Part shown: positions 8,028 to 23,751 of the stretch, one piece after another
Position numbering within the stretch: position 1 is the stretch's first letter
Layout of the letters: each line of letters begins with the position of its first letter
Assembly (NCBI GenBank): GCA_019240475.1
Contig: JAFAYI010000008.1
Location: 12,980-76,979, forward strand
Direction of reading: 5' to 3'
Source: Acidobacteriaceae bacterium
Lineage (GTDB): Bacteria; Acidobacteriota; Terriglobia; Bryobacterales; Bryobacteraceae
DNA: 64,000 nucleotides
Program-made: the position numbers and the translations under genes
Notes under the pieces: model-generated
What the model saw: only the letters and a program-made list of their open reading frames with translations
Database searches by the model: none
What the model was told of the DNA's origin: nothing

Positions 8028-8798
8028 ATGCAGCAGATTGATATACCGATCCCGGCGGACTTGAAGAAGGCGTTCGAATTCCCGCCATGCGTGCAGGTAA
8101 AGCTGAAAACACCGTCCCCGCTAAAGGTTACGTTGCCGACGGGCGGGACCCTGACTGCGTTCTCGGATCTTTCTAAAGGCATTCCCAGCGACTGCTCTCT
8201 AACTTTCAGCCTGCTGCTGCAGATTGCACCGTTTTTGGCGAGCACCGAATGTCTGTTGAAGGTGCTGGGGCTAATCGGCCCTCTGATCGAGTTCGTCAAG
8301 GCAGTGCCGGATCCGATTAAGATTGCCAGCACCGTGCCGAAGTTCCTCAAAGCCGCGGAGGCCGTGATGCCCTGCATTGCGGTGGTCACTGGTCTCGGAA
8401 TCATCCCGTTCATCAAGGATCTTCTTTGTCTCATCATCAAGGCGCTGAATTGTTTCCTAGGGCAGATGAAGACACTGCTCGGCGTTATGAGCGGGCTGAG
8501 CCTGCAACTGTCCGCGGCCCAAGCCAATGGAGATGCGGATCTGACCGCCGCCATTCGTTGCGAACAGGACAACGCGCAAGCCCTGGCTGGAAATCTGACC
8601 GCCTCAATCCAGCCGATTGGCGTGGTCCTTCAATTGGCAGGCACACTTTTCGGAATCGCCGGCATGAAGCCGATTGAGCTGCCCGCTATCGGCTCGGAAA
8701 CCGATCTCGAATCACTGATCACCCTCGTAAGCACTCTGCAGGGAGTAGTCGGAACTCTGCAAATCGTCGCAGATGGTCTGGGAGGGTGCGACTCATGA
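8028..8798 (+). CDS. hypothetical hydrophobic, helical, Cys-containing protein in the spike-tip/PAAR position
   Basis: ATG start; 256 aa. It lies between the spike and gp25 genes, and its stop overlaps the next ATG (ATGA). It has long hydrophobic helical stretches (LLLQIAPFLAS.., IAVVTGLGIIPFIKDLLCLIIKALNCFLG). No family recognised and no PAAR motifs. Confidence 0.5.
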   Translation: MQQIDIPIPADLKKAFEFPPCVQVKLKTPSPLKVTLPTGGTLTAFSDLSKGIPSDCSLTFSLLLQIAPFLASTECLLKVLGLIGPLIEFVKAVPDPIKIASTVPKFLKAAEAVMPCIAVVTGLGIIPFIKDLLCLIIKALNCFLGQMKTLLGVMSGLSLQLSAAQANGDADLTAAIRCEQDNAQALAGNLTASIQPIGVVLQLAGTLFGIAGMKPIELPAIGSETDLESLITLVSTLQGVVGTLQIVADGLGGCDS

Positions 8799-9196: not shown

Positions 9197-11241
9197 TGCC
9201 GCTTCCCCAGGTTCAGCTCGACAATCGAAGCTATTCAGATCTGGTAACGGAGCTGCGGCGGCGCATTCCGGCGTACACCCCGGAGTGGACCGATTTCAAT
9301 GAGAGCGATCCGGGAATCGCTCTCATTGAGTTGTTCTCCTGGCTTGCGGATATCCTCATCTACCGCATTAACCAGATTCCTGATCGCGCCTATGTGAAGT
9401 TTCTCGAGATGATCGGCATCACGCTGGATCTTCCATCGGCGGCTCAAGCGTACCTGACATTCACGCTTACGTCGAAAGATCTACCGAGTCCGGTTAACGT
9501 TCCGGGCGGAACCACAGTTGGCCTGTCGAATGCCTCGGCGAGTCCGGTCATATTTGAAACGACCGAAGATCTTTGGGTAACTGGCGCGGCGCTTGCGGCA
9601 GTTCAGACCTATGATGGCGCGCGGTATTCGGTCGTGAATAACTTCAATCCAACCGATGGCAGCTCTTACTATCCGTTCAGCCAAACCCCACAGGCCGACG
9701 CCGCACTGTACATGGGATTCGACAGGCCGTTTCCGGCCGCAGCAGGCGTCCAGTATCCGTTGATTTTTCTCGTCCAGACACCGTCGGTGAACGGCGCGGC
9801 GCAGGGCGGAACCGCCGCACAGAGCAGTTCGCAGCCGATTGTCGGCGTTCTCGAGTATTCGACCGCGAGCGGGTGGGCGCCGTTCGCCGGTGTGCAGGAT
9901 ACGACCAACTCACTTACCAACAGTGGAGCGATTTTGTTTCAAGGAGCGTCCGATTGGGTTGCCACTCAATACGGAGCGTTCCGGAAGAGCAGCGATCCCT
10001 CGTACTACTGGATGCGTTACCGCATCGGTCAGTTGGTCGGCCCCGGCTACCAATCGCCGCCGCAACTCACGAATCTTCTGGTGAACACGGTCCAGGCGCT
10101 CAACGCTGTCACCGAAGAGGGCGAAGTGATCGGTGGCAGCAATGGGCTTCCGAATCAGAGCTTCATAATAAGCCACGCGCCGGTGCTTCCCAACGATCCT
10201 GGGGTCACAGGCATCGTAGAAGTGGACGAAGGCGACGGCAACGGTCCAACGCTGTGGGCTGAAGTTCCCGATTTCTCCGGTTCGGGACCAAACGACAAAG
10301 TCTACACGCTCGACCACTCGAGCGGAACGATCACATTCGGCGACGGGGTGCATGGAAAGATACCACGCTGGCTGTCGTCTGACGGTTCCAATCTGGAGAG
10401 TTCCGACACGCCGAACATTCAGGTGACAAGCTACAAATGGGGCGGCGGATCGGCTGGGAACGCAGGATCGAACAGTATTACTTCGCTGATTGATACTGTG
10501 CCGTTCATTGCCAGCGTCACGAACATCCTGCCGGCTCAACTCGGAGCCGACGAGGAAACTGTGGCAGACGCGCAAGAGCGCGCCCCAGAAGCCATTCGCA
10601 CCTTATCGCGCGCAGTCACACCCGAAGATTTCATCGCCCTGGCAAGACGAACACCGGGAGCTCGTATTCAGAGGGCCACCGCTATTCCGCTGCAAAGGCC
10701 GCAGACGCAGGTGGTTCGCGCTCCGGATGGGACCGTCATCACGCCTCCGTTGGCGCCCGGCGTTATCACCGTGATTGTTGTGCCGGATGGTCCGAACCCA
10801 GCAAGGCCGGTCGCGAACGATCAAACTTTGGCGGCGGTTGCGGCCTACCTGGACGGATATCGCCTTATCACCACCGAACTGTATGTCACCACGCCGGTAT
10901 ACCGCCTGGTTGAGGTACACGCCACGGTAACCGCTACTCCCGGCGCTCTCTCAACCGACGTTCAGGCAGCCGTGCAAAACGCATTGCTCGCCTTTTACAA
11001 CCCGCTCACAGGCGGCCAGCAGAGCGCCGGTCTACAGGGCTCAGGTTGGGATTTCGGCGGCACCATCTATGTCTCCGACGCGTATCAGCAGATTTTGCAA
11101 ATCGATAGCGTAGACCGCGTTGAAGGGCCGATCCGGATCTACGTTGATAACCAACTCCAAGCTCAGGATCAAGACATTCCGTTACAGCCCTTTGAGCTAG
11201 TGTATTCGACGAATCACGTCATAAGTGTGAGCTATTCGTAA
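9196..11241 (+). CDS. baseplate J/gp6-like protein (Afp11-like)
   Basis: TGATG junction; 681 aa. YSDLVTELRRRIPAYTPEWTDFNESDPGIALIELFSWLADILIYRIN is typical of baseplate J family N-termini. Confidence 0.85.
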   Translation: MPLPQVQLDNRSYSDLVTELRRRIPAYTPEWTDFNESDPGIALIELFSWLADILIYRINQIPDRAYVKFLEMIGITLDLPSAAQAYLTFTLTSKDLPSPVNVPGGTTVGLSNASASPVIFETTEDLWVTGAALAAVQTYDGARYSVVNNFNPTDGSSYYPFSQTPQADAALYMGFDRPFPAAAGVQYPLIFLVQTPSVNGAAQGGTAAQSSSQPIVGVLEYSTASGWAPFAGVQDTTNSLTNSGAILFQGASDWVATQYGAFRKSSDPSYYWMRYRIGQLVGPGYQSPPQLTNLLVNTVQALNAVTEEGEVIGGSNGLPNQSFIISHAPVLPNDPGVTGIVEVDEGDGNGPTLWAEVPDFSGSGPNDKVYTLDHSSGTITFGDGVHGKIPRWLSSDGSNLESSDTPNIQVTSYKWGGGSAGNAGSNSITSLIDTVPFIASVTNILPAQLGADEETVADAQERAPEAIRTLSRAVTPEDFIALARRTPGARIQRATAIPLQRPQTQVVRAPDGTVITPPLAPGVITVIVVPDGPNPARPVANDQTLAAVAAYLDGYRLITTELYVTTPVYRLVEVHATVTATPGALSTDVQAAVQNALLAFYNPLTGGQQSAGLQGSGWDFGGTIYVSDAYQQILQIDSVDRVEGPIRIYVDNQLQAQDQDIPLQPFELVYSTNHVISVSYS

Positions 11242-13331
11242 TGACTCCCGCGCGCGGCAATTATTTTCTCCTCAACTCGCTCTTCGAAGCGCAATGGCCG
11301 ATCGCTACACAAACGGGTGTTTACATCACGCCGGATGCAGGCGAGATTACTTTAGACCCGCTGCCGGGTAGCGCCAGAGTCCTGGATGCATCGGCAGTAG
11401 GTGCAGTGACGTGCCCGTTGGCCCTAGCCGCCGATTCCCAAGGCCGCTTTTTTGTACTCGACGGTGCAAACAATCGGCTCACAGTGTTGAGCCTAGCCAC
11501 CTCGCGAGCAATGCACATCGCGGCGTTCGGCGGGAAAGGCATTGGGCTACGCCAGTTCAAGAGCCCACAATCGGTAGCAGTCCTACCGTCCGGCGGGATT
11601 GCCGTTGCGGACACGGGCAACCAGAGGGTGCAGCTTTTCTCGGCCACTCCCTACGTTCTGCTGAGAGTCTGGGGCCCGCCCGACTTGGCCGTGCAACCCA
11701 ATGCAGTTGCGAGCGACAGTTCCGGAATCGTTTACATTGGCGACGGCAAGAGCGGATCTGTTCTGCGAGTCTGCACGAGCGGTGAATGGTTGGCGCCAAT
11801 CGGCGCCGGCATCCTGACGAACCCGGTCGCGTTGGCGGTTTCACCCGATAAAACCCTCGCGGTGATCGACAGCAAGAGCGGGAAAACATCGCTCGTGATT
11901 TTTCCTGGGACGGGCGGCAAGCCGGTACACCTCTCAACCGTCGCCGCCCCTTGCAGTCTCACATTTGACGACACCGGCAATCTCTACGCGGGAACCGCTA
12001 ATGCGATCGTTGCGAAATTGCAGGCGGATTCTACACAGCTCAGCGGCTGGTCGCTCGCAGGAGAAGGCGTCAGCGACGTAGATGGGCGGATCTCACAAAT
12101 CGTCTGGGTTAAGGGATCGGGCCTGATTGGAATCCTGAGTAACACCGTCCCCAAGACTGCGCCGCGCCTGTTTTCTATGGCTCCTGCCGGAGCCTACCGG
12201 CTGGCCGGCACGCTCGTCCTTAATAGCCTGGACAGCAGGATCGAGAACTGCTCGTGGCACAGAGTGCGTGTTCTGGGGAAAATTCCCGTGGGCGCAAGCG
12301 TGACGGTTGCCAGTTCTACGAGCGCCGACAACACGCATTGGACACCCTCAATCACCGGTGCTCTCCTGTCCGGCGACAACCCGGATTGCCTCATACAAAG
12401 CCCTCCGGGCCAGTACCTTCAGCTCACCGTCAATCTGCAGTCGAATGGCTCGGTCACGCCCTGTATCGACGCGCTTGAAGTCCACTTCCCGCGCACGAGC
12501 TATCTCCAATATCTACCGGCCGTGTTTCAGGAAGACGATCAGAGCCGGTTGTTCCTGGATCGCTTTCTTTCGATTTTCCAGACCACGTTCGACGGGATAG
12601 ACAGTTCCCTCGACAATCTCCAGGATGTTTTTGATCCGCTCATGACGCCGGCCAACGTCTTTCCGTGGCTTGCAGCCTGGGTTGCTCTTCCCATTGATCC
12701 GACCATGACGCTCGACCGGCAGCGGAAGTTGCTCAAGGGCGCATTCCAGGCCTATTTAAAACGGGGAACCGTCGCCGGATTACAGCAGATTATTCAGGAT
12801 TACACCGGCATCGATCAGATCCGCATTCTCGAGCATTACAGAGTTCGGAATTGGCTCACTCTGCAGGACTCATCCAGCCCTCTCGCTCAAGGCGCCCGTT
12901 TGTGGAGCGCCAAATTCTACTCGCGGTTAAGATTGGGCGTCACATCCAAGGTGGGATCGTTTCGCCTCACAAATTCGCCGCCTCCCTCTGCCGAGCCTTT
13001 CGATTGGGGAGCGAACCAGTTCAGCGTATTCTTCCCAGCGAGCCCTTACACCGCGGCTTCTACATCGTTGGCAATACAGAAGGTCCTCGATCGCGAGAAG
13101 CCGGCGCATACACAAGCCTTTCTGTCGCCGGTGTTTCCACGTCTTCGGCTGGGCGTGCAATCCACGCTCGGTGTCGACGCGTATGTGGGCAAGGTCAATC
13201 CGATGATTCTCGGTAAGCTGTCGACTTTAAATTACGACGCCGTATTGGCACGCTCGCAAAGCCAGCGCGACATGCAAGCCCTGGGACTCAGCCCGTTTCC
13301 GCGGCTCGGTAAGAACGCAACAATTCTGTGA
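11241..13331 (+). CDS. P2 gpI/Afp12-like baseplate protein with N-terminal NHL-repeat beta-propeller
   Basis: TAATG junction. NHL-like repeats are present (GRFFVLDGANNRLTVL; GIAVADTGNQRVQLF; GIVYIGDGKSGSVLRV; TLAVIDSKSGKTSLVIF). They are followed by the tail-protein-I domain (YLQYLPAVFQEDD..LDRFLSIFQ..FPWLAAWVALPID..LLKGAFQAYLKRGTVAGLQ). Confidence 0.8.
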   Translation: MTPARGNYFLLNSLFEAQWPIATQTGVYITPDAGEITLDPLPGSARVLDASAVGAVTCPLALAADSQGRFFVLDGANNRLTVLSLATSRAMHIAAFGGKGIGLRQFKSPQSVAVLPSGGIAVADTGNQRVQLFSATPYVLLRVWGPPDLAVQPNAVASDSSGIVYIGDGKSGSVLRVCTSGEWLAPIGAGILTNPVALAVSPDKTLAVIDSKSGKTSLVIFPGTGGKPVHLSTVAAPCSLTFDDTGNLYAGTANAIVAKLQADSTQLSGWSLAGEGVSDVDGRISQIVWVKGSGLIGILSNTVPKTAPRLFSMAPAGAYRLAGTLVLNSLDSRIENCSWHRVRVLGKIPVGASVTVASSTSADNTHWTPSITGALLSGDNPDCLIQSPPGQYLQLTVNLQSNGSVTPCIDALEVHFPRTSYLQYLPAVFQEDDQSRLFLDRFLSIFQTTFDGIDSSLDNLQDVFDPLMTPANVFPWLAAWVALPIDPTMTLDRQRKLLKGAFQAYLKRGTVAGLQQIIQDYTGIDQIRILEHYRVRNWLTLQDSSSPLAQGARLWSAKFYSRLRLGVTSKVGSFRLTNSPPPSAEPFDWGANQFSVFFPASPYTAASTSLAIQKVLDREKPAHTQAFLSPVFPRLRLGVQSTLGVDAYVGKVNPMILGKLSTLNYDAVLARSQSQRDMQALGLSPFPRLGKNATIL

Positions 13332-14680
13332 AAGAAAAATCCATGCCATCAAGCAATCGAAACACTTCCGGCAACCCGACATCCGCTGCGGCATCCGCGA
13401 GCGTGGCTGTAAGCGTGGACAGCGGCGCTTGTGAGATCCCGGCGTTTTGCCGCAGCAATTTCTATACGGGCAAACTGCTGACCGAGTGCGACCTGACGCG
13501 TGAACAGCGCTACCTGATCGATAAGCTGCGCCTCCACTATGTAGCCCTGCACGGCTGGGGAGTCGCATGCGGCTTGATGGTTAAGCCGCACCCCCAGTAT
13601 GCGGATCGCTTGGTTGTCACTCCGGGATTCGCCGTTGACGATTGCGGCCGGGAGATTCGGCTTCTTAAAGAATGCGTCGTACTGTTTCCCAAGCCCCCGC
13701 AGTCCTTGCCCGACCCTTGCGAGCCGGAGTTCGAGGATGAGGCCTGCGACGAATCCGGAACGGGCATAGAGATCGAACCTGAGAGACACAACTACTACGT
13801 TTGCATTCGCTACACCGAGTGCCGAGAAGACTTCATGCCGGTTGTGTTCTCCGATTGTTGCAACACCTCGAAACAGCCTAACCGCATCTCGGAGTGCGCT
13901 GTGATCGACATCCTTACGGATCCTCCGGAATGCCTGGGCGAGATCCAGCGTCATAAGCAGAGGCCCCGTGAGGAGAACTGTCACGCCTTGCTGGAGCACA
14001 CTTCTCAGAACTGCCCGCCTTCGGGTAAAGAGTGCTGCATCCCGCTCGCGCTGGTCCATGGCTACGTTTACGGCGATTCGCTTACCGAGCACATGATTGA
14101 CAACCGCGTGCGTCCCCACATGCCCAGCGTTCCTCACCTGGAAGCGCTGGTCCGCTGTGTGATGGAGCATCAACCGAAGCACGGGCCGCACCTGACGCGC
14201 ATCTCCCGCGTTCATTGGGAGCACGATCGCGAATACCGTCCTCGCGAATTCGTTCACGAGTTTGTTGGAACGCACGAAGCGCCACGGGGATTTCTGGTTG
14301 AATTCGATAAAGAAGTTCACGAGCAGGGGCTGAATCCCCGCACGTTTCAGGCGACCATCGTGCGCCATCCCTACGAGGGGCATGAAGCGAGACGGGTGGA
14401 AATCGCGCCGGCGCGGGTCACTCGCGGCGAAGACGGACGCCATTGCAGCTTGCACATAGATCCGGAATACGTTCGCCGCCATCTTCAGGAAGAAAACTTC
14501 GATGTGATCCTGACCTTGCAATGCGACAAGGTGATCGACGAAAACGGAATCCCGGTAGACGGCAACCTTCTTGCCGGAGTCCGCGAGTACGACAAGCAAT
14601 ATATGCTCCGGTTCCCGACGGGAAACGGCACGCCGGGAGGCCTGTTTGAAAGTTGGATTCGAGTCAGGCGTGAGAGATAA
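13328..14680 (+). CDS. Cys-rich CIS-associated protein, paralogue A (tail-fibre/Afp13 position), function unknown
   Basis: GTG 13328 overlaps the gpI stop (GTGA); the alternative ATG is at 13343. About 20 Cys by eye. The N-terminal module NFYTGKLLTECDLTREQRYL..HGWGVACGL..VTPGFAVDDCGREI is shared with the next two genes. Confidence 0.6.
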   Translation: MKEKSMPSSNRNTSGNPTSAAASASVAVSVDSGACEIPAFCRSNFYTGKLLTECDLTREQRYLIDKLRLHYVALHGWGVACGLMVKPHPQYADRLVVTPGFAVDDCGREIRLLKECVVLFPKPPQSLPDPCEPEFEDEACDESGTGIEIEPERHNYYVCIRYTECREDFMPVVFSDCCNTSKQPNRISECAVIDILTDPPECLGEIQRHKQRPREENCHALLEHTSQNCPPSGKECCIPLALVHGYVYGDSLTEHMIDNRVRPHMPSVPHLEALVRCVMEHQPKHGPHLTRISRVHWEHDREYRPREFVHEFVGTHEAPRGFLVEFDKEVHEQGLNPRTFQATIVRHPYEGHEARRVEIAPARVTRGEDGRHCSLHIDPEYVRRHLQEENFDVILTLQCDKVIDENGIPVDGNLLAGVREYDKQYMLRFPTGNGTPGGLFESWIRVRRER

Positions 14681-14756
14681 CTGAGCGATGAACAGGGGCG
14701 CGAAGTACAAGGCGCGAAATACACGGAATGCATAGGCGGTAATCGAGGAGACCACG

Positions 14757-16694
14757 ATGCGGCAAGGACCCAATACGAGCACAGGTATGCGAGCGAGCCC
14801 GACTTCGACCCCGGCCGCCACTCAGACCACTTCGAGTTCCTCTACAGGCGGATGCGGCTGCGGATGCCACGATCAGGCCGCGACCGAATGCAGTTGTTGC
14901 AAGCTTCACTGCTTCGAACGTCCGCAATATTTCTGCGGGCAGCTGCTTTCCGATGCGGAGCTCACTTTACAGCAGACGTACTTCCGGGAAAAGAGCAAGC
15001 TGTATCACCGGACCATGGACGGCTTCGGTGTCGTCTGCGGATTTCAGATGTATTGCGATGCTCGCTGCAAAGGCCACATTCGGATTGCCGACGGTTATGC
15101 AATCGATCCGTGCGGCAACGATCTGGTCGTCTGCGAGCCACGAACTTTCGATGTCATCGGCGCGCTCCGCAGGAAGAAGTGGCTGGTCGAAGTGCCGGGC
15201 GACCGGCCCCGAAGCGATAACGGCGCGGCCTTCCGCCTGCACAGCGAGGATGAAAACGGCGATGACTGCATCGACAAACAGTGCTTCTATATCGGGATCT
15301 GCTACTCGGAAGAGCCAATCGACTTTGCGACGCCTTACACTACCGAGTGCGATGCCGCACCCGGCCCATGCCAGCCAACCCGTATCCGGGAAGGTGTGCG
15401 ATTCGAGATCTACGACACGATGCCGGTCCGCCCAAATCCGCTCGACAGCATAGGTAAGCGTATCGAACACTGTTTCAGGATGTTTCGGGAGGGGCAGTTC
15501 TCGAAAAGCCTGGCTAGTAACGCGCCCCGCATTCTCGATATCTTGTGCCGCCCGCAAGACTCCGGCCGGCAACCTTCAGGCCGGGGAACTCCCGGACAGC
15601 CGGCGCCCGATCAGGCGCAGGCGCGCCAGAACCCGGCCGCGCTTTTCAGAGAGATGCAGGCGCAGTTTCTGCATGAACTCCATACCTGCCCCGACCGGTA
15701 CAACTGCGATCTCGAACGAGAGGTGTACCGGCTTCGGCCGCCCGATCTCGATAGTCGCGAAGGCGCGTCCGGCGAACTCGAGAGCTTCACGAGACTCTTT
15801 GAGCTGATCCAAAAGTATGTCTTCAGTTGCGTGCTATCACAACTCGCGTTTTCTTGCCCGGAACCGCAGCAGGACTGCTGTGTACTCATCGGCAGTGTAG
15901 AGGTCACGAACGGATGTCTAACGCGCGTCATCAATTATCCGCGCTGGTACTTGTGGTGCTTCGGGAACTTCTTCGAGGTGTTGCTCTACACGATCGCCAA
16001 TGACGCGGCCCGAACCGCCGCTGCGCCAGTCACTCCTCCCACCCGCGGCGCGCCGGATCCGAAGCCAACGAACACTGGATGTGGTCCGGAGTATGAAATT
16101 GATCTTTGCCAGTTCCTGAATCTATTCAGCGCGGACCATCGCGCATTCGAAAAAGCCGCGCGCAGTTCTGTCGACGCCTTACAAGCTTCCTATCGAGCGC
16201 TGGTGGAAGGATTCAACTTTATGCGGCCAGGCGGAATCGCGCCTAGCGTGCTGCGCAATCTCGACCGTGACGCCGCCGAGAATCTCGCGAGTATGTTTGG
16301 ACTCCAATTGGAACCTTCAACTGGACAGCAACCCGTCAGACCAGATGTTTTTGCGGCCCTCGCGGATAACACGCTCCATTTTCGTTCCCAAACACTTGTA
16401 TACGATACGGACGAGTCGCCCGACGCCTCCGGCAACGCAGTTACTCAAGTCAGCGGCGTGATAGGGGCGCCTGCGTTTGCTGTCGGGCCTTACACGCATT
16501 CCATGATGACGGATCTGATGGAACGGCTCACAAACACGGAGAACCGTCTCCGCCAATGTGAAGCGCGGCTTGGGACTCGGAGACAGGACACACCGCCATC
16601 TACACCGGAGAACTCGCCGTCGACGTCCGAAACGCCGGCGTCCGGTTCAGGGCCTCAAAACCCTGGTCCGCCTCAAAGAGGAACCGTCAAGTGA
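14757..16694 (+). CDS. Cys-rich CIS-associated protein, paralogue B, function unknown
   Basis: The ATG follows a GAGGAG RBS. It has an N-terminal Cys cluster (GGCGCGCH..ECSCCKLHCF). The shared module follows: QYFCGQLLSDAELTLQQTYF..DGFGVVCGF..IADGYAIDPCGNDL. About 30 Cys by eye, with a Pro/Ser/Thr-rich C-terminal tail. Confidence 0.6.
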   Translation: MRQGPNTSTGMRASPTSTPAATQTTSSSSTGGCGCGCHDQAATECSCCKLHCFERPQYFCGQLLSDAELTLQQTYFREKSKLYHRTMDGFGVVCGFQMYCDARCKGHIRIADGYAIDPCGNDLVVCEPRTFDVIGALRRKKWLVEVPGDRPRSDNGAAFRLHSEDENGDDCIDKQCFYIGICYSEEPIDFATPYTTECDAAPGPCQPTRIREGVRFEIYDTMPVRPNPLDSIGKRIEHCFRMFREGQFSKSLASNAPRILDILCRPQDSGRQPSGRGTPGQPAPDQAQARQNPAALFREMQAQFLHELHTCPDRYNCDLEREVYRLRPPDLDSREGASGELESFTRLFELIQKYVFSCVLSQLAFSCPEPQQDCCVLIGSVEVTNGCLTRVINYPRWYLWCFGNFFEVLLYTIANDAARTAAAPVTPPTRGAPDPKPTNTGCGPEYEIDLCQFLNLFSADHRAFEKAARSSVDALQASYRALVEGFNFMRPGGIAPSVLRNLDRDAAENLASMFGLQLEPSTGQQPVRPDVFAALADNTLHFRSQTLVYDTDESPDASGNAVTQVSGVIGAPAFAVGPYTHSMMTDLMERLTNTENRLRQCEARLGTRRQDTPPSTPENSPSTSETPASGSGPQNPGPPQRGTVK

Positions 16695-17980
16695 GCACCA
16701 TTGATCGCATCCGTTATTACGATGGCGAATTCCTGCGCGCCTTCGATTTCGACGACGAGCAGACCTACCACGTCGAGATGCGCCGGCGCCTGAACCGCTA
16801 CTTGCACCTCGCCGGAATCGTCTATGGTCTGCAACTCCAGCAAGAACAGGACGCCGTTGGAGTATCCATTCTGCCAGGGCTTGCGATCGATGCCCTCGGG
16901 CGCGAAATTTATGTCTTTTCGCCCTACACGCTCGGCGACAGTGACATCGTCGGCAATCGCATCTCGCAGGCGGGACAGTACGAGGTTTGGCTTCGATATA
17001 ACAAAACCGCCGGCACACCGCCATCTTCCGGCTATAGCAGTTGCAACCAGACGGACCAATACACTCGCTGGGCTGAGACGTTCAGCGTTGTGCTCCTTCC
17101 ATCCTCCTCGAGCGGGTTTACACCTCCGTCGTTCACGGATGAGGATACAGACGATCCGTCAGAGGATCAGGTTGGCGTTAGGCTAGGCACCGTGTCGATT
17201 GACCCGAATGCGTCGACTGAATTCTATGGCGCGACCCAAGATCATCGGCATTTTGCCGGCATAATCGCTCAACGCATTCAGACGCCGCTTCCTTACGACG
17301 CGACACAGTCGTTCCAATTCCAGACCAAACAGTCGCCGCACAAGCCACCCGTGTCGTTGGCGATCGAACCTAACATTTTCGCCCAGCAGAACTTCATCTT
17401 GGGACCTGATTTTGATCTGACCACCACTCCCGCTGGCAAGCCCATTACAGCCAATCCATCTTTTGGGGCCAACGCTGCGGGAAATGCGAAGCTGGCCGGC
17501 GATCTGGTAGTGCAAGGAAACATCTATTCCAGCGTGCCGGACCAATCAGGTAATCCTCAATGGCTTGGCCTGGCCGCGTATGTGAAGCAACTTGTGCAGC
17601 AAGGTCAGCCAGATATCGCGAGCGGTACGCAATGGATATCAATTCCGGTTCAGCCCCCCAACACCTTCGCCGCAGGCGTCTGGAAGGGAACGACGCAGGT
17701 GCCGGTTACCATGAACCGCTTGACGAGCGGGACCTCGCAGCAGGTTATTGTCTCCATTTCTCAGATTCAAAGCGCAAGCCAGACAGCCCTGAACACGCTG
17801 TTCACGGGAGGCGCGCAAATAGGGCTTCAGATTGTCAACGTGGGTAACTTTCAACCCTCGGGCTCCGGGATGGCCGGATATGTCAACGTGACCTGGCAGG
17901 CGCAACCGGGCTCCGCGGCTCCGGCGACGTGTGCTATCGACAATTTCACAGTGACCTGTTGGGTGATTATATTGCCCTAA
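16691..17980 (+). CDS. CIS-associated protein, paralogue C (Cys-poor), function unknown
   Basis: The GTG overlaps the upstream stop (GTGA). It carries the shared module RYYDGEFLRAFDFDDEQTYH..LAGIVYGLQL..ILPGLAIDALGREI. Only 3 Cys. The C-terminal half is beta-rich and Gln/Thr/Ser-rich, resembling fibre or receptor-binding domains. Confidence 0.6.
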   Translation: MSTIDRIRYYDGEFLRAFDFDDEQTYHVEMRRRLNRYLHLAGIVYGLQLQQEQDAVGVSILPGLAIDALGREIYVFSPYTLGDSDIVGNRISQAGQYEVWLRYNKTAGTPPSSGYSSCNQTDQYTRWAETFSVVLLPSSSSGFTPPSFTDEDTDDPSEDQVGVRLGTVSIDPNASTEFYGATQDHRHFAGIIAQRIQTPLPYDATQSFQFQTKQSPHKPPVSLAIEPNIFAQQNFILGPDFDLTTTPAGKPITANPSFGANAAGNAKLAGDLVVQGNIYSSVPDQSGNPQWLGLAAYVKQLVQQGQPDIASGTQWISIPVQPPNTFAAGVWKGTTQVPVTMNRLTSGTSQQVIVSISQIQSASQTALNTLFTGGAQIGLQIVNVGNFQPSGSGMAGYVNVTWQAQPGSAAPATCAIDNFTVTCWVIILP

Positions 17981-17986
17981 AACGTT

Positions 17987-19642
17987 ATGAGCTTACGGAT
18001 CGCCCTGTTCGACACAACCTGCCACGTCCCGGAATGCCATCGGAACAAGGCAGTAGTTGTGGATCGGCTGGCGCGAAGCCGCTTTCCTCGGGATCTCGCG
18101 GGACACCTCGGCCCCAGCCTGGGCCGCCAGCCCTCAATTGTGCGCATACGCCGGCTTTCGGTGCGAGTCATTCTCCCTGCCTCTGATTTCACCGAAGACG
18201 CACTGTCGCTCGCGTGGAGCCAGGCATTCGGGAAGGCCTTGTTCACCGCACTCGCCTGTCCGGCAACCGCTGGGCCGGTTGAGATTTTTCGCGCGGATTC
18301 GGTCGCCGCGTTTATCGCGTCCGCGATTTGCGATCTGCTCAACGGCACGGCCGCTACTCAATGGCAATACGCCGAATTCGAGGATTTTTTCAAACGTGGC
18401 GCCACACAGGCTGCTCTAGGGTTGCTCTCTGAATGGCCGCTGCAAACGCTACCAGTGCTTCTGGAGCTTGCGCAACACGGCGTCCTCGCGCGCTTGCTGG
18501 CCCGGTTCGATGAAGTGGCGATGGAGCGGCTATTCACCATCCTCGCGCACCCGGACGACGCCGCCTCGGCCCGGCTTTCGCTAGGCAGTTTATTGGTTGC
18601 AGGCAGGCTCGCGCTTGTGCGGCCGCCGGAAAAATTGGCCGCGCTACGAACGCGTGCATACGCGCTCACACTTTTCGTAGAAGCGCACCGCATGTCGAAA
18701 CATGTCTTATCCCCACGAGAGCTATTTCATGCGCTACTCGCAATCGCCGTTTTGATCGATCCGACGACATCCTGGCAGGACGCGCTCCGAATGCATGCGG
18801 TCGCGGCGTCTTTTCCTTCCAGCGTGAAGGCCTTATTCGAACGATTGCGCAACCATAGTGAAGAGGAATGGCAATGTTCTCATTCCTCAGGCATTCGAGG
18901 CGCCTCCGATTTGCAAAACGGCGGTCTATCGCTCCCCGTCACATCTAGTCGCTCAAGAGAGCAGATTCTTGAGTGGAACCGGCTCCGGTCGAGCATGGCT
19001 GCTCAACTGAATCTGCCGGCGCCACCCCTGGCGGCTTCGGAGGTACGCTGGATCTCGACTGAATGGTGCGGTCTTTTTTTTCTTGTTAGTACGTTAGCGA
19101 GGCTCGGCTGGATCGCGGAGTGGAAGCAACTGGCGGTCTTCCAGACGGGTGGCGTTGCGTGTCTGGTGGCCGGCCTAGCCTTGACGATCGCTGAACAATT
19201 CAATCCCTCCGTGCCCATGCTCGATCCTGGAATCGCACTGTTCGCTGGTTACGCCGGCGATCCGGACCTCGCTCATTTGCGCGGCGTATTCCAGCACACC
19301 CCTCGCGCGGTCCGTCTGAGGGTATTGGAATCTGCAATTGGGCAGCCCCCCGTGGACAGTGCGGCCGAGAGTTGGGCGGAGACACTCGACCGCTTGGCAG
19401 TGTTTCTGGTTGAGGCCTTCGCCACGCGCATTCGCGGCTTCCGGCAGGCCACAAGACGAACCGTTCTGCAGAGCTTCATCGCTCGCCCAGGCAGGCTGCG
19501 CATCGAGCGCAGCCGAATCGTAGTGTTCCCGGCTCCCAACCCTTTTCATGTCGCGGTACATCTCTCCGGCCTGGACGCGCCGGTGGAAGCGGACCGTTGG
19601 ATCGGCGGACTCGCTATCAGTTTCGAATTGGGAGATCTGTGA
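17987..19642 (+). CDS. hypothetical Ala/Leu-rich protein translationally coupled to the AAA+ ATPase (tape-measure or assembly-factor candidate)
   Basis: ATG start; 551 aa. Its stop overlaps the ATPase ATG (TGATG). The sequence is helical and Ala/Leu/Arg-rich. No motif recognised, so the role is inferred from position only. Confidence 0.5.
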   Translation: MSLRIALFDTTCHVPECHRNKAVVVDRLARSRFPRDLAGHLGPSLGRQPSIVRIRRLSVRVILPASDFTEDALSLAWSQAFGKALFTALACPATAGPVEIFRADSVAAFIASAICDLLNGTAATQWQYAEFEDFFKRGATQAALGLLSEWPLQTLPVLLELAQHGVLARLLARFDEVAMERLFTILAHPDDAASARLSLGSLLVAGRLALVRPPEKLAALRTRAYALTLFVEAHRMSKHVLSPRELFHALLAIAVLIDPTTSWQDALRMHAVAASFPSSVKALFERLRNHSEEEWQCSHSSGIRGASDLQNGGLSLPVTSSRSREQILEWNRLRSSMAAQLNLPAPPLAASEVRWISTEWCGLFFLVSTLARLGWIAEWKQLAVFQTGGVACLVAGLALTIAEQFNPSVPMLDPGIALFAGYAGDPDLAHLRGVFQHTPRAVRLRVLESAIGQPPVDSAAESWAETLDRLAVFLVEAFATRIRGFRQATRRTVLQSFIARPGRLRIERSRIVVFPAPNPFHVAVHLSGLDAPVEADRWIGGLAISFELGDL

Positions 19643-21858: not shown

Positions 21859-23751
21859 ATGGGCGCACCCGAGATCGTTTCCTTCGAAGAAGAGATCGCC
21901 TTCCGAAATCCGGCGAAAGCCGTATCGCCCGAACAATTCACCATTCCAGAAAGCGGGCACGACCCCACGGTTGACAGGTTTTTTGGCGCGAGCGCGCTTT
22001 CTGTACCCCACCTGAAGGCGCCGGTGTTGCAGCGCGCTCAACGCCTCTACGGGAATCAAGCCTCAGGGCAAATCGTCATGCGCGCCCGCGCACTCCAACG
22101 CCGCTGCGCTTGCGGAGGAACATGCGAGAAGTGTCAAGCCGCCGTTCTTAATACGCAAGGAGAACCGTTACAGTCTAGCTCCCGCCGCCCTCTTGAGAAT
22201 CATTTCCAAATCGATCTCGCCGACATCCGCATTCACACCGGCGCCGAAGCAGCGGAGTCCGCACGAAACCTCGACGCGCTTGCCTACACCAGCGGCCGCG
22301 ATATTTATTTCGCTCACGGGATGTATGCGCCCTCCAGCACAAGCGGTCACCGATTGCTCGCGCACGAAGTAGCACACGTAGTGCAGCAGAGTTCCGGCAA
22401 AGAGCCGAGCATCGCCACGAAGTCGGCGCACGGCCCGAAGATCGGCGCGCCGGACGACCCGCTCGAATACGAAGCGGAGGGAGAAGCCGAGGATTACATC
22501 CATGCTCGCCCGAGAGATACGAACGAAGCCGGAAAGCGCGCTCCTTTGGGCACGGGACCTGGATCCATCCAGAGACAATCCGCTCCAGGAGTCCACGTTT
22601 CCTATCCCACGGCTCCGCACGACAAATCAGCTCCCGAGGTCGAATCGATGTACCGGCGCGCGGGATTGCAGGATGCGGCAAATGCAGTCCGACAATGTCG
22701 CGAAGGCAATTGTTCCCATGTGCTCACAGAGGCGGAGGCCTATGAGGCCTATCGAACGGGAAGATTGAGTGCGGGATTGGGTGAGCCTTCAGTAGATGAA
22801 AGGCGAACATCATCTAGCCCAAATATTGCCGCGGGGGGCGTTCTTACCGGGGCCGTTGTCGCAGGAACGCTTCCGGCTGGACAGACTGCGGTCGGCGCCT
22901 CTGCCTCAACAGCCTTGGAACGAGCTGCGCTGCGCTGGGGCACAGCGGAAGTGATCGAGGGTGGGACTGCCGCCAGCACTGCAACCGTTACCGCTGGCAC
23001 CGTTGCTATCCCAGTCGCCGCCGGGATCTATTTGGTTGTAGCAACGGTCGCTCTGCTACGATACGCGAGCTTTCAGACGACTCTGCAACGAGAGGGTTAC
23101 ACAATTTTACCGAATCCTTTTCAGGTATGTATTGCCGGCTGTCATCAGCCAGCCGCGCCCGATTACAAACCGATCGATCCAGGGCTCTGGGAGCCCCTGA
23201 CTCCCCTTGGACCGTCCGATTTTTCAAAGCCGGACTTGGACGCGCTTCGCCGGTGGGTGGAAGCCGAACCTCAGCACCCACCAGGAAACGGGACTACTAA
23301 CGCGCCACCTGAAACGGATCCGGGGCTCTCTCGGCCGATCACAGCAGGGCCGGCGCCGAAGCCCCGACCTGTCATGGACCCTGCATTACCGGAAGCAGAG
23401 AAGCGAAAATGGGAGCGTTGCAATGAGCTGTACGAACAGTACAAAAAGACACAGGGAGACGAAGCGGGATACGGCGAGAACCTGCGACGGCTTCGACTCA
23501 TACTGCAGTCCGGGAACGCGACCCCGCCGGAGCGGCATGCCTTCTGCCTTCTACTTCGATTACGCATCCAGCTCGTGAAACAGTTGCTGAACCAGCGAAT
23601 GGAATACCTTGCCAACTTTTGTGATGAATTCGACTGGTTCAGCCGTGGCACTACCCCTCAACAGCGTGCTAATCAACACTGGCTGGAGGTGCAAAATGTC
23701 ACGGCACACCTGAATCAACTCGAAGGTTATCTGCGACAGTTCTGCCCCTGA
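21859..23751 (+). CDS. DUF4157-domain protein, candidate eCIS payload 1
   Basis: The ATG lies 3 nt after the ATPase stop. It contains CACGGTCEKCQ, then RPLENHFQIDLADIRIHTG..AYTSGRDIYFAHGMY..LLAHEVAHVVQQ (DUF4157 with HExxH). A Gly/Ala-rich hydrophobic stretch follows, then an unassigned C-terminal domain. Confidence 0.75.
   Translation: MGAPEIVSFEEEIAFRNPAKAVSPEQFTIPESGHDPTVDRFFGASALSVPHLKAPVLQRAQRLYGNQASGQIVMRARALQRRCACGGTCEKCQAAVLNTQGEPLQSSSRRPLENHFQIDLADIRIHTGAEAAESARNLDALAYTSGRDIYFAHGMYAPSSTSGHRLLAHEVAHVVQQSSGKEPSIATKSAHGPKIGAPDDPLEYEAEGEAEDYIHARPRDTNEAGKRAPLGTGPGSIQRQSAPGVHVSYPTAPHDKSAPEVESMYRRAGLQDAANAVRQCREGNCSHVLTEAEAYEAYRTGRLSAGLGEPSVDERRTSSSPNIAAGGVLTGAVVAGTLPAGQTAVGASASTALERAALRWGTAEVIEGGTAASTATVTAGTVAIPVAAGIYLVVATVALLRYASFQTTLQREGYTILPNPFQVCIAGCHQPAAPDYKPIDPGLWEPLTPLGPSDFSKPDLDALRRWVEAEPQHPPGNGTTNAPPETDPGLSRPITAGPAPKPRPVMDPALPEAEKRKWERCNELYEQYKKTQGDEAGYGENLRRLRLILQSGNATPPERHAFCLLLRLRIQLVKQLLNQRMEYLANFCDEFDWFSRGTTPQQRANQHWLEVQNVTAHLNQLEGYLRQFCP
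21967..22479 (+). repeat. copy 1 of a ~513-bp direct repeat encoding the DUF4157 cassette
   Basis: The encoded 171 aa (TVDRFFGA..DPLE.EAE) are near-identical to those of 24433-24945, with roughly 15 substitutions by eye. Flanking sequence is unrelated on both sides. Confidence 0.85.

What the first reader, a model, noticed from the sequence alone, without database searches (positions are those of the whole stretch)
13328..17980. Three tandem paralogues with a shared N-terminal module and divergent C-termini occupy the tail-fibre position
All three proteins share a module of about 170 aa. Its pattern is [FY][YF]xGx[LF]Lxxx[DE][LF]xx[EQ]QxY ... G[VI]xxG[LF] ... PGxA[IV]DxxGx[ED][IL] ... [YF][VI]x[IL]xYxE. 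After this module they diverge completely. A and B are very Cys-rich, with about 20 and about 30 Cys by eye, including GGCGCGCH..CSCCKLHC in B. C has only 3 Cys and a beta-rich, Q/T/S-rich tail. A conserved anchor with variable distal domains is the classic logic of receptor-binding fibre diversification. However, I do not recognise the module as Afp13/adenovirus-like or any phage fibre family, and I have not seen disulfide- or metal-rich fibres described for eCIS.
Basis: partly seen in the sequence, partly recalled or inferred. Interest (0 to 1): 0.68.

Follow-up and report, generated by a model that had tools for sequence, protein, structure and literature searches.

The report
Three TssK-like baseplate proteins, two cysteine-rich
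Three neighbouring genes of a phage-tail-like injection machine share a known baseplate-anchoring "shoulder" domain; only the third looks like a variable target-binding fibre, while the first two are an old, conserved pair unusually rich in cysteine whose role has not been described.

Summary
A (13328-14680), B (14757-16694) and C (16691-17980) lie between the gpJ/gpI wedge genes and the AAA ATPase of an eCIS locus in an Acidobacteriaceae MAG. They share an N-terminal module of 135-175 aa (profile-profile E 7e-29 to 9e-10) and nothing after it. A has 21 Cys, B 31 and C 3.

The module is already known. It is the TssK/Alg19/Cis19-type "shoulder" that docks trimeric fibres onto the wedge protein. 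The evidence is sequence hits to PDB 7b5h Cis19, 9wt0 and the N-terminus of NCBIfam CIS13_fam, plus Foldseek hits of the B and C models to TssK and Cis19. Operons with three fibres sharing one such anchor (eBAP3) were catalogued in 2026.

The trio is not a recent diversification. The order A-B-C(-C') holds in 60 of 63 sufficiently long loci from more than 10 phyla.
- A is conserved over its full length.
- B is conserved through its neck.
- Only C-type genes vary in length and head; C's head looks like a phage receptor-binding or lectin head.

The unreported part is that A and B keep a fivefold cysteine excess (A also histidine). This suggests metal sites or disulfides. The verdict is a new variant of a known kind, of moderate interest.

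The parts
11241..13331 (+). Wedge protein (Cis12/gpI/TssG-like) with an N-terminal NHL-repeat extension. It is the probable docking partner of A, B and C through its C-terminal loops.
   Evidence: Pfam hits NHL 2e-16 and Tail_P2_I 3e-8. The same gene lies directly upstream of A in L001 and L003. The C-terminal 175 aa carry repeated R-x-G...G-x-D-T-x-L motifs conserved across loci. The docking role is inferred from Alg12-Alg19 and TssG-TssK (PMC13314943; PMC12923769).
13328..14680 (+). Paralogue A: shoulder, then a Cys/His-rich middle, then a family-specific C-terminal domain. It has 21 Cys and 24 His.
   Evidence: ORF. It is 100% identical to MAG Acidobacteriaceae JO340_03655. The family has 229 hits, all conserved over the full length. 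Composition.
13433..13927 (+). A shoulder module (about residues 36-200).
   Evidence: hhalign to the B family E 7e-29 and to the C family 2e-15. The profile hits 7b5h_AA residues 18-92 at E 3e-6 and CIS13_fam positions 3-80 at E 1.7e-13.
14168..14677 (+). A C-terminal domain (residues 281-450), ending in the conserved PTG-x-G-x-PGGLFESW motif.
   Evidence: Mean pairwise identity is 51% within the family. A full scan of 1.84 billion representatives finds it only at the C-terminus of A-type proteins (83 hits). The motif is also present in the Kutzneria orthologue. Its fold was not modelled.
14757..16694 (+). Paralogue B: N-terminal Cys cluster, shoulder, helical neck, variable C-terminal part and a low-complexity tail. 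It has 31 Cys.
   Evidence: ORF. The family has 342 hits. The AF2 model has pLDDT 74. Foldseek hits 7b5h_AB at E 1.6e-4 and TssK entries 5y0e, 6n38 and 5mwn at E 4e-4 to 1e-3, over about 370 columns.
14853..14936 (+). B N-terminal cysteine cluster (residues 33-60: C-G-C-G-C ... C-x-C-C-x3-C ... C).
   Evidence: C35, C47, C48, C52 and C60 are 91-99% conserved in the close family and 79-96% in the wider set. Residues 1-47 of the model fall below pLDDT 50, so the geometry is unknown.
14913..15425 (+). B shoulder module (about residues 53-223).
   Evidence: hhalign results. The model shows a long helix at 66-86 followed by a beta-sandwich at 91-219.
15438..16031 (+). B helical neck (about residues 228-425).
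   Evidence: The model has helices at 228-263, 293-325, 337-363 and 405-422. This region aligns with the TssK N-terminal domain structures. Mean identity is 46% within the family.
16691..17980 (+). Paralogue C: shoulder, beta-rich middle and variable beta-sandwich head. It has 3 Cys and is the best candidate for a true receptor-binding fibre.
   Evidence: ORF. The family has 107 hits. The AF2 model has pLDDT 82. Foldseek PDB hits TssK and Cis19 with probability up to 0.98, plus Helix pomatia agglutinin. Foldseek BFVD top hits are phage H-type-lectin, minor-tail and tail-fibre proteins, E 6e-7.
16691..17101 (+). C shoulder module (residues 1-137).
   Evidence: CIS13_fam positions 3-142 at E 2.9e-14. 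hhalign results. Mean identity is 65% within the family.
17591..17977 (+). C head (residues 301-429), a beta-sandwich and the most variable part.
   Evidence: Mean identity is 27% within the family. In distant loci, C-type genes keep only the shoulder and range from 414 to 983 aa. Weak Pfam hit to the SpaA_2 prealbumin-like fold, E 0.045.

Best explanation
A, B and C are three ancient paralogues of the TssK/Alg19/Cis19 class of baseplate-peripheral proteins. Each begins with a 'shoulder' domain (one long helix plus a beta-sandwich). In characterised relatives this domain forms a trimer whose central helices clamp a loop of the wedge protein. Here the wedge protein is the TssG-like Tail_P2_I protein encoded directly upstream (11241-13331).

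The most likely arrangement is one homotrimer of each paralogue on each of the six wedges, docked on separate C-terminal loops of that protein.

The distal parts differ in role:
- C (and a fourth C-like paralogue in some loci) is the variable, cysteine-poor, beta-rich receptor-binding fibre with a lectin-like head.
- A and B are slowly evolving, cysteine-rich (A also histidine-rich) fixed components. Their conserved cysteines most probably form structural metal sites or disulfides that rigidify or lock the baseplate periphery. They would act as structural or checkpoint elements, as Alg19 and TssK do, rather than as interchangeable target binders.

Shown here: paralogy and its extent, the shoulder fold for B and C, gene context, deep conservation of order, cysteine conservation, and the gradient of variability.

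Inferred: trimerisation, docking on Cis12 loops, presence in particles, metal or disulfide chemistry, and the division of labour.
For: - Locus identity as an eCIS.
- Paralogy limited to the N-terminal 135-175 aa.
- Sequence link of the module to solved shoulders: the A-family profile hits 7b5h_AA (Cis19 crown trimer) at E 3e-6 and 9wt0_a (1443 aa, the length of Alg19) at E 0.01.
- All three hit only the N-terminal 80-142 positions of NCBIfam CIS13_fam.
- Fold: the B and C models hit TssK (5y0e, 6n38, 5mwn, 5m30, 6giy) and Cis19 chains as top PDB matches.
- Published mechanism for this domain: the Alg19 shoulder helices bind the Alg12 C-terminal loop, like TssG-TssK, and deleting Alg19 abolishes cell binding and destabilises the pre-firing state (PMC13314943).
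- Tail_P2_I loci are modelled to hold up to four eBAP3 fibres through loops (PMC12923769).
- Deep conservation: 345 genomes encode an A relative.
- Of 63 loci with enough downstream sequence, 51 are A-B-C and 9 are A-B-C-C.
- Synteny gpJ, gpI(NHL), A, B, C, 491-538-aa ORF, AAA is seen in a Gemmataceae MAG and another MAG.
- Variability gradient: A 56/42/51%, B 62/46/27%, C 65/46/27% identity along the protein.
- C-type genes range from 414 to 983 aa with only the shoulder retained.
- C resembles phage receptor-binding and H-type-lectin proteins.
- Cysteines: about 14 in A and about 27 in B are at least 87-90% conserved in the close families.
- A core set persists phylum-wide: A C35, C81, position 91, C106, C159, C177 plus H70, H75, H88; B C47, C52, C94, C104, C119, C126, C205.
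- The Kutzneria A orthologue carries HHHGHGCGCHQCHEQCLEPRCPCG.
- There is a fivefold Cys excess over the rest of the locus.
Against: - No multimer prediction or particle data exist, so trimer state, stoichiometry and docking sites are untested.
- A was not modelled. Its shoulder fold is inferred from homology to B.
- Foldseek scores are modest (E 1.6e-4 to 3e-2, TM 0.1-0.3) because only part of each chain aligns.
- eCIS assemble in the reducing cytoplasm. That argues against disulfides at assembly but does not prove metal binding.
- The window's own A lacks two otherwise conserved cysteines (S32 and Y91), so at least one putative site is dispensable here.
- The eBAP3 HMM was not available, so assignment to eBAP3 rather than eBAP4 is indirect.
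Confidence: 0.7

Rival explanations
1. A, B and C assemble into one A:B:C heterotrimer per wedge. The three homologous shoulders would form a pseudo-threefold unit on a single asymmetric Cis12 loop, and the three different distal parts would project from it.
For: - Near-obligate 1:1:1 co-occurrence and fixed gene order across phyla.
- Overlapping or adjacent genes suggest coupled expression.
- The docking loop is intrinsically asymmetric, and Cis19 trimers already break C3 symmetry above the shoulder (PMC8894136; PMC13314943).
Against: - Nine of 63 loci carry four shoulder paralogues (A-B-C-C), which does not fit a trimer.
- The regions after the shoulder are structurally incompatible as a common stalk: a helical neck in B against beta structure in C.
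- All characterised relatives (TssK, Alg19, Cis19, Cis13) are homotrimers.
- Published modelling places up to four separate fibres on one Tail_P2_I protein.
Confidence: 0.12
2. One reading: three alternative receptor-binding fibres produced by diversification of distal domains on a common anchor, widening target range. The cysteines would stabilise extracellular binding domains.
For: - Position and anchor logic.
- Multi-fibre eBAP3 operons are interpreted this way in the literature.
- The C-terminal part of B is variable, at 27% identity.
Against: - A is conserved along its whole length. Its C-terminal domain is retained from Acidobacteriota to Actinomycetota (coverage about 0.95 in nearly all loci; 51% identity; same terminal motif in Kutzneria).
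- A and B exist as fixed orthologues in more than 10 phyla, whereas target-binding tips normally turn over, as C does.
Confidence: 0.13
3. A and B are not parts of the finished particle. They would be assembly factors or regulators, for example scaffolds or chaperones for fibre or baseplate assembly, or cytoplasmic redox or metal sensors that gate assembly. They would use a shoulder domain only to bind the wedge transiently.
For: - Cysteine/histidine richness is typical of intracellular metal-binding proteins.
Against: - They carry the same fold as bona fide structural trimers.
- There are no enzyme or chaperone family hits in Pfam, NCBIfam or PHROGs.
- A has a large conserved distal domain and B a TssK-like neck.
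Confidence: 0.05

Closest known systems
Alg19, tail fibre of AlgoCIS (Algoriphagus machipongonensis). PDB 9wt0 is presumed to be its shoulder and neck.
   Same: - The N-terminal shoulder is detectable by sequence profile.
- It is a trimer docked on the C-terminal loop of the gp6/gp7-like wedge protein.
- It has a role in cell binding and in stabilising the pre-firing state.
   Different: - It is a single 1443-aa gene with a neck, a middle part and an Ig/PKD chain.
- The baseplate has Afp11/Afp12-type wedges with a cage.
- It is not cysteine-rich.
- That 9wt0 is Alg19 is my inference from the identical length and the trimer copy number.
Cis19, crown protein of the Anabaena thylakoid-anchored CIS (PDB 7b5h chains AA-AC). 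It is the prototype of eBAP4.
   Same: - It is the best solved-structure match by sequence (E 3e-6) and by fold (probability up to 0.98).
- It forms pseudo-C3 trimers on the baseplate periphery.
   Different: - It is 1476 aa with bulky alpha+beta domains.
- It coexists with a membrane-anchoring Cis13, whereas A, B and C have no transmembrane segment.
- eBAP4 loci lack Tail_P2_I genes, while this locus has one.
TssK of type VI secretion systems (PDB 5y0e, 5mwn, 5m30, 6n38, 6giy).
   Same: - It has a shoulder, helical neck and head architecture. B aligns over about 370 columns including the neck.
- It binds loops of TssG, the counterpart of the Tail_P2_I protein.
   Different: - It is one gene forming two identical trimers per wedge.
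- Its head binds the membrane complex.
- There is no detectable sequence similarity and no cysteine enrichment.
Multi-fibre eBAP3 operons (Nachmias et al., Nat Commun 2026, PMC12923769).
   Same: - Several consecutive genes share one shoulder-like anchor of about 200 aa downstream of a Tail_P2_I gene.
- An example with three architecturally distinct eBAP3 fibres is shown.
- Runs of 3-4 consecutive eBAP3 genes are listed for Streptomyces and Saccharopolyspora.
   Different: - The operons are presented there as rapidly evolving receptor binders.
- The main text has no mention of cysteine or of Acidobacteriota.
- The fixed A-B-C order and the slow evolution of A and B are not described.
- In the Kutzneria loci of that catalogue only one gene per locus is listed.
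Cyanophage Pam3 gp24 fibres (PMC9942802).
   Same: Cysteines at the fibre-wedge junction give a redox-dependent attachment, and reduction releases the fibres and triggers contraction.
   Different: - The fibre N-terminus is unrelated (alpha-helical).
- The cysteine-rich platforms lie on the wedge proteins. Here the wedge protein has only 6 Cys and none conserved in its C-terminal loops.
Afp13/Pvc13 adenovirus-like fibres (eBAP1/2).
   Same: They occupy the same operon position and the same general role.
   Different: There is no sequence or fold match. Those fibres use short (about 50 aa) anchors and beta-spiral shafts folding back on the sheath.

Membership tests
TssK/Alg19/Cis19 shoulder-domain proteins | N-terminal shoulder fold (long helix packed on a beta-sandwich). 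| tested here: met
   The B and C AF2 models have TssK and Cis19 as their top PDB Foldseek hits. Secondary structure is a helix followed by about 8 strands. A is met by homology only (hhalign to B, E 7e-29).
TssK/Alg19/Cis19 shoulder-domain proteins | Detectable sequence relationship to a solved member. | tested here: met
   Profile hits to 7b5h_AA at E 2e-4 (three-sequence profile) and 3e-6 (A family), and to 9wt0_a at E 0.01. The B family alone is not significant (E 0.68) and the C family alone gives nothing.
TssK/Alg19/Cis19 shoulder-domain proteins | Encoded next to, and docking as a trimer on a loop of, the TssG/gpI/Cis12-type wedge protein. | tested here: inconclusive
   Adjacency is met.
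eBAP3 anchor (Nachmias et al. 2026) | Match to the authors' eBAP3 HMM (about 200 aa, shoulder-like) in a locus with Tail_P2_I and Baseplate_J. | not testable with these tools
   The HMM is not available. Indirect support: the locus has Tail_P2_I and Baseplate_J. Kutzneria loci are typed eBAP3 in the paper, and a Kutzneria genome carries A-B-C-C homologues.
NCBIfam NF053767 CIS13_fam (equivalog) | Whole-protein score of at least 370 bits over the 392-position profile. | tested here: not met
   A scores 50.6, B 30.5 and C 53.1 bits, matching only profile positions 2-142. The Kutzneria homologues score 23-99 bits over positions 3-157 only. The three share the shoulder with that family but are not members.
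eBAP5 / DUF6519 | Pfam DUF6519 match. | tested here: not met
   No Pfam hit at E up to 1 for A and B, and only a sub-threshold SpaA_2 hit for C.
Afp13/Pvc13-type fibres | Adenovirus-like beta-spiral shaft repeats and a short N-terminal anchor. | tested here: not met
   No Pfam, PHROGs or PDB sequence hits. The models show no beta-spiral.
H-type lectin head (for C only) | H_lectin domain by sequence, or a confident fold match of the head. | tested here: inconclusive
   There is no Pfam hit. Foldseek to Helix pomatia agglutinin gives E 0.05-0.07, probability 0.8-0.93 and TM(target) 0.42-0.49. The BFVD top hit is annotated as an H-type lectin domain, E 6e-7, but the alignment spans the whole chain.
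Metal-binding or disulfide-rich protein (for A and B) | Conserved cysteines and histidines arranged in 4-ligand sites or pairs in 3D. | not testable with these tools
B residues 1-47 are below pLDDT 50 and A was not modelled.

The most novel reading that the evidence does not exclude
A and B are not receptor binders. They would be a deeply conserved pair of cysteine/histidine-rich, TssK-like baseplate modules that form a metal- or redox-dependent lock. The lock would stay reduced or metal-loaded in the producer's cytoplasm. It would change state after release or on target contact, coupling the chemical environment to firing. This is the eCIS counterpart of the redox-dependent fibre attachment seen in cyanophage Pam3, and C alone would provide target specificity.
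Probability: 0.15. Interest if true: 0.7.

Novelty: new variant of a known kind. Interest (0 to 1): 0.42.

Why it matters
Fibres of eCIS are being catalogued and engineered on the assumption that every gene carrying a baseplate anchor is a swappable, fast-evolving receptor binder. In a large clade (345 of about 186,000 species genomes, more than 10 phyla), two of the three or four anchored proteins appear to be fixed, cysteine-rich parts. If so, they are part of the core machine, acting in stability, checkpointing or triggering.

That has three consequences:
- Retargeting efforts should be directed at the C-type gene.
- Fibre counts per locus would need correcting.
- The clade would offer a testable route to how metal or redox chemistry might control firing.

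Cultured carriers exist (Granulicella, Kutzneria, Amycolatopsis, Pseudoduganella), so this can be tested directly.

Tried and rejected
- Pfam, PHROGs and single-sequence PDB searches gave nothing useful for A, B or C. Only profiles reached Cis19 and Alg19.
- NCBIfam CIS13_fam looked like a family assignment, but it matches only the shoulder and falls far below its cut-off.
- I tried to group cysteines into sites by correlated presence and absence across 178-189 homologues. Strong associations appear, for example B C176/C239/C442/443 and C182/C375. They track the split between the close family and distant clades, so I do not count them as evidence for sites.
- I tried to count docking loops in the Cis12 C-terminus and relate them to the number of paralogues. 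All loci share four G-x-D-T-x-L-like motifs. A-B-C-C loci have a longer loop with a conserved LAC.H..D.PPSRPP motif. These loci form one clade, so the correlation is confounded.
- L005, the closest relative with 'A only', turned out to be a chimeric or rearranged contig in which A is fused to a glycyl-tRNA-synthetase-like sequence.
- A full-library search with A's C-terminal domain found no other context for it.
- A membrane-anchoring role like Anabaena Cis13 was rejected, because there is no hydrophobic segment above 1.44.
- A Streptomyces CisA-like interpretation was rejected, because CisA is a membrane protein and is not shoulder-like.
- Model coordinates are not exposed to the script environment, so Cys-Cys distances could not be measured.

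Full report
**Observation.** The three ORFs exist as described: A 13328-14680 (450 aa), B 14757-16694 (645 aa) and C 16691-17980 (429 aa), all on the + strand. The A start overlaps the stop of the upstream gene by 4 nt, and B and C overlap by 4 nt. Pairwise BLASTP of the N-termini gives E 3e-12, 1e-7 and 9e-9. I built orthologue alignments of 109, 107 and 98 sequences. Profile-profile comparison of these gives E 7e-29 over 175 columns (A-B), 2e-15 over 135 (A-C) and 9e-10 over 134 (B-C), with no similarity beyond the module. Cysteine counts are 21, 31 and 3. That is 4.7%, 4.8% and 0.7%, against 0.92% for the other 17 ORFs of the locus. A also has 24 His.

**Context.** The window carries a complete eCIS operon. 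In order it has two sheath and two tube genes, a CIS_tube initiator, a VgrG OB-fold spike, gp25, Baseplate_J and a Tail_P2_I protein with N-terminal NHL repeats. A, B and C follow, then a 551-aa ORF, a WHD-AAA ATPase and two eCIS_core (DUF4157) proteins. A, B and C are identical to hypothetical proteins JO340_03655/03660 and their neighbour in an Acidobacteriaceae MAG. The genes therefore do occupy the fibre position.

**What the shared module is.** Pfam and PHROGs are silent. NCBIfam NF053767 ('CIS13 family contractile injection system protein') hits the N-terminus of all three at E 2e-13, 2e-7 and 3e-14. The hits cover only profile positions 2-142 of 392 and score 30-53 bits against a cut-off of 370. 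Profiles of the trio and of the A family hit two solved chains.
- 7b5h_AA (All3314), residues 18-92, at E 2e-4 and 3e-6.
- 9wt0_a, a 1443-residue PKD-domain protein, at E 0.01.

All3314 is Cis19, whose trimers form the 'crown' of the Anabaena thylakoid-anchored CIS (PMC8894136). Alg19, the AlgoCIS tail fibre, has exactly 1443 residues. Its N-terminal 'shoulder' folds like lactococcal-phage receptor-binding proteins and TssK. It binds the C-terminal loop of the wedge protein Alg12 through three central helices, 'reminiscent of TssG-TssK' (PMC13314943). That 9wt0 is Alg19 is my inference.

AF2 models of C (pLDDT 82) and B (pLDDT 74) start with one long helix followed by a beta-sandwich. Their best PDB Foldseek matches are TssK structures and the three Cis19 chains. 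For B the E-values run from 1.6e-4 to 1e-3 over about 370 columns, which includes the helical neck. For C they run from 5e-3 to 3e-2, with probability up to 0.98. The module is thus the known TssK-type shoulder anchor.

Nachmias et al. (PMC12923769) named five such anchors, eBAP1-5.
- eBAP3 is about 200 aa, shoulder-like and TssK-like. It occurs in loci whose Tail_P2_I protein resembles TssG and is modelled to hold up to four fibres by loops.
- eBAP4 is the Cis19 N-terminus, in loci lacking Tail_P2_I.

This locus has Tail_P2_I, and Kutzneria loci are typed eBAP3 in that paper. eBAP3 is therefore the likely label, but I could not run the HMM.

**The trio is old and fixed.** Each protein has a large full-length orthologue family (229, 342 and 107 hits), often on the same contigs. 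A Gemmataceae MAG and another MAG show the same order: gpJ, gpI(NHL), A, B, C, a 491-538-aa ORF, then AAA. A scan of one genome per species found A relatives in 345 genomes. They span Acidobacteriota, Eremiobacterota, Planctomycetota, Verrucomicrobiota, Nitrospirota, Myxococcota, Gemmatimonadota, Chloroflexota, Actinomycetota and Proteobacteria. Cultured carriers include Granulicella sp. L46, Kutzneria sp. CA-103260, two Amycolatopsis and Pseudoduganella umbonata.

I ran the A, B and C family HMMs over all ORFs of the fetched loci. The order was always A, then B, then C-like. Of 63 loci with at least 6.5 kb downstream of A, 51 are A-B-C, 9 are A-B-C-C, 2 are A-B, and 1 is a chimeric contig.
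- A-type proteins carry 12-29 Cys.
- B-type proteins carry 25-42 Cys in full-length copies.
- C-type proteins carry 0-9 Cys.

**Which parts vary.** Mean pairwise identity within the close families falls along each protein as follows.
- A: 56% in the shoulder, 42% in the middle, 51% in the C-terminal domain.
- B: 62% in the shoulder, 46% in the neck, 27% at the C-terminus.
- C: 65% in the shoulder, 46% in the middle, 27% in the head.

In distant phyla, A still aligns over about 95% of the profile. This includes its terminal PTG-x-G-x-PGGLFESW motif, which is also present in Kutzneria. C-type genes there keep only the shoulder and range from 414 to 983 aa. A's C-terminal domain occurs nowhere else among 1.84 billion representative proteins.

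C's model resembles phage receptor-binding proteins. The BFVD top hits are an 'H-type lectin domain' siphovirus protein (E 6e-7) and minor-tail and tail-fibre proteins. In the PDB its head weakly matches Helix pomatia agglutinin. The 'conserved anchor, variable tip' logic therefore applies to C and to the end of B, but not to A.

**The cysteines.** In the close families about 14 Cys of A and about 27 of B are at least 87-90% conserved. Across phyla a core set persists.
- A: C35, C81, position 91 (Cys in 95% of homologues, Tyr in this window), C106, C159 and C177, with H70, H75 and H88 at 97%.
- B: C47, C52, C94, C104, C119, C126 and C205.

By the A-B alignment, four of these are shared positions inside the shoulder (A 35/81/91/106 against B 48/94/104/119). 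C has none of them. The Kutzneria A orthologue contains HHHGHGCGCHQCHEQCLEPRCPCG.

These proteins are made in the cytoplasm and have no signal or transmembrane segments. This favours metal sites, although disulfides formed after release cannot be excluded. I could not measure geometry, for three reasons: coordinates are not exposed, B's N-terminal cluster is modelled below pLDDT 50, and A was not modelled. A literature search found no cysteine-rich eCIS fibre. The closest precedent is cyanophage Pam3, whose fibres are disulfide-linked to cysteine-rich wedge platforms and fall off, with contraction, on reduction. Here the wedge protein has no conserved cysteines in its C-terminal loops.

**Mechanism proposed.** Each paralogue forms a homotrimer through its shoulder and docks on a separate C-terminal loop of the TssG-like wedge protein. 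That gives three (or four) different trimers per wedge. C is the variable receptor binder. A and B are fixed, metal- or disulfide-stabilised peripheral modules with a structural or checkpoint role, comparable to the stabilising role shown for Alg19 and the connector role of TssK.

An A:B:C heterotrimer is the main rival. It is attractive because of the strict co-occurrence. It is disfavoured by the four-paralogue loci, the mismatched necks, and the fact that all characterised relatives are homotrimers.

**Comparison and novelty.** The anchor, its TssK ancestry, and operons with three eBAP3 fibres of different architecture are published. Runs of 3-4 consecutive eBAP3 genes are listed for Streptomyces and Saccharopolyspora. 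Three things are not described in what I could search.
- The first two genes form a conserved, ordered A-B pair across more than 10 phyla.
- They evolve slowly, and A does so along its whole length.
- They carry a fivefold cysteine excess (plus histidine in A) with a phylum-wide conserved core.

The paper's main text does not mention cysteine or Acidobacteriota. I rate this a new variant of a known kind, of moderate interest.

**Limits.** There is no multimer modelling, no model of A, no access to coordinates, no eBAP HMMs and no particle data. The Foldseek E-values are modest. The conclusion rests on their agreement with the sequence-profile hits and the gene context.

Noticed in passing
window 8028-8798 (+): A 256-aa ORF between the VgrG-OB gene and gp25 has no Pfam or NCBIfam hit but 8 Cys (3.1%) and no His. 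ORFs of the same size (256 and 250 aa) sit at the same place in L001 and L003. It may be a spike-tip or PAAR-like or plug component, and it is a second cysteine-enriched protein of the baseplate.
   Followed up: partly
window 11241-12200 (+), N-terminal third of the Tail_P2_I wedge protein: The wedge protein carries N-terminal NHL repeats, a beta-propeller (Pfam NHL 2e-16). These are conserved in the Gemmataceae and other loci. This is an unusual peripheral extension of a gpI/TssG-like protein and might itself bind ligands.
   Followed up: partly
window 12800-13328 (+) and the equivalent C-termini in L028, L032-L034, L036, L038, L040, L047, L053, L060 and L077: The last ~175 aa of the wedge protein contain four repeated R-x-G / G-x-D-T-x-L-like motifs in all loci. 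Loci with four shoulder paralogues (A-B-C-C) have a longer loop with a conserved LAC.H..D.PPSRPP motif between the second and third motif. This could be an extra docking loop, but these loci form one clade.
   Followed up: partly
window 13421-13423 (S32) and 13598-13600 (Y91) of A: This genome's A lacks two cysteines that are otherwise conserved: Cys in 76% and 95% of 189 homologues. They are replaced by Ser32 and Tyr91. At least one putative Cys site is therefore incomplete in this particular locus.
   Followed up: partly
window 17987-19642 (+): A 551-aa ORF in the Afp14 (tape-measure or length-determining) position has no family hit. It has one hydrophobic stretch (Kyte-Doolittle 1.84 at residue 384). 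A size-conserved ORF of 491-538 aa sits in the same position in related loci.
   Followed up: no
window 21859-23751 and 24322-28836 (+): There are two proteins with the eCIS_core (DUF4157) domain, of 630 and 1504 aa, with a 169-aa ORF between them. They are likely cap-associated or cargo proteins of the system.
   Followed up: no
window 30829-32169 (+): A sigma-54-dependent response regulator (receiver, AAA+ and Fis-type HTH domains) lies directly downstream of the eCIS operon. It is a candidate regulator of the locus.
   Followed up: no
window 32293-34815 (-): An 840-aa fusion protein combines a 2Fe-2S ferredoxin domain, radical SAM, SPASM and DUF3050. It is probably unrelated to the eCIS and was not seen in the related loci that I inspected.
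   Followed up: no
L005 3669-6245: In the closest genome-collection relative (an Eremiobacteria MAG, 78% identity to A), the A reading frame runs straight into a glycyl-tRNA-synthetase-like sequence, and no B or C follows. This is a chimeric contig or a decayed locus.
   Followed up: yes
L039, L041, L042, L045, L046, L049, L052, L054, L056, L061, L063, L064, L067, L070, L071, L073, L076, L079-L082: In many Acidobacteriaceae, Verrucomicrobiota and Chloroflexota loci the A-type protein is about 780-950 aa instead of about 440. It still matches about 95% of the A profile, so a large insertion lies between the shoulder and the conserved C-terminal domain.
   Followed up: no
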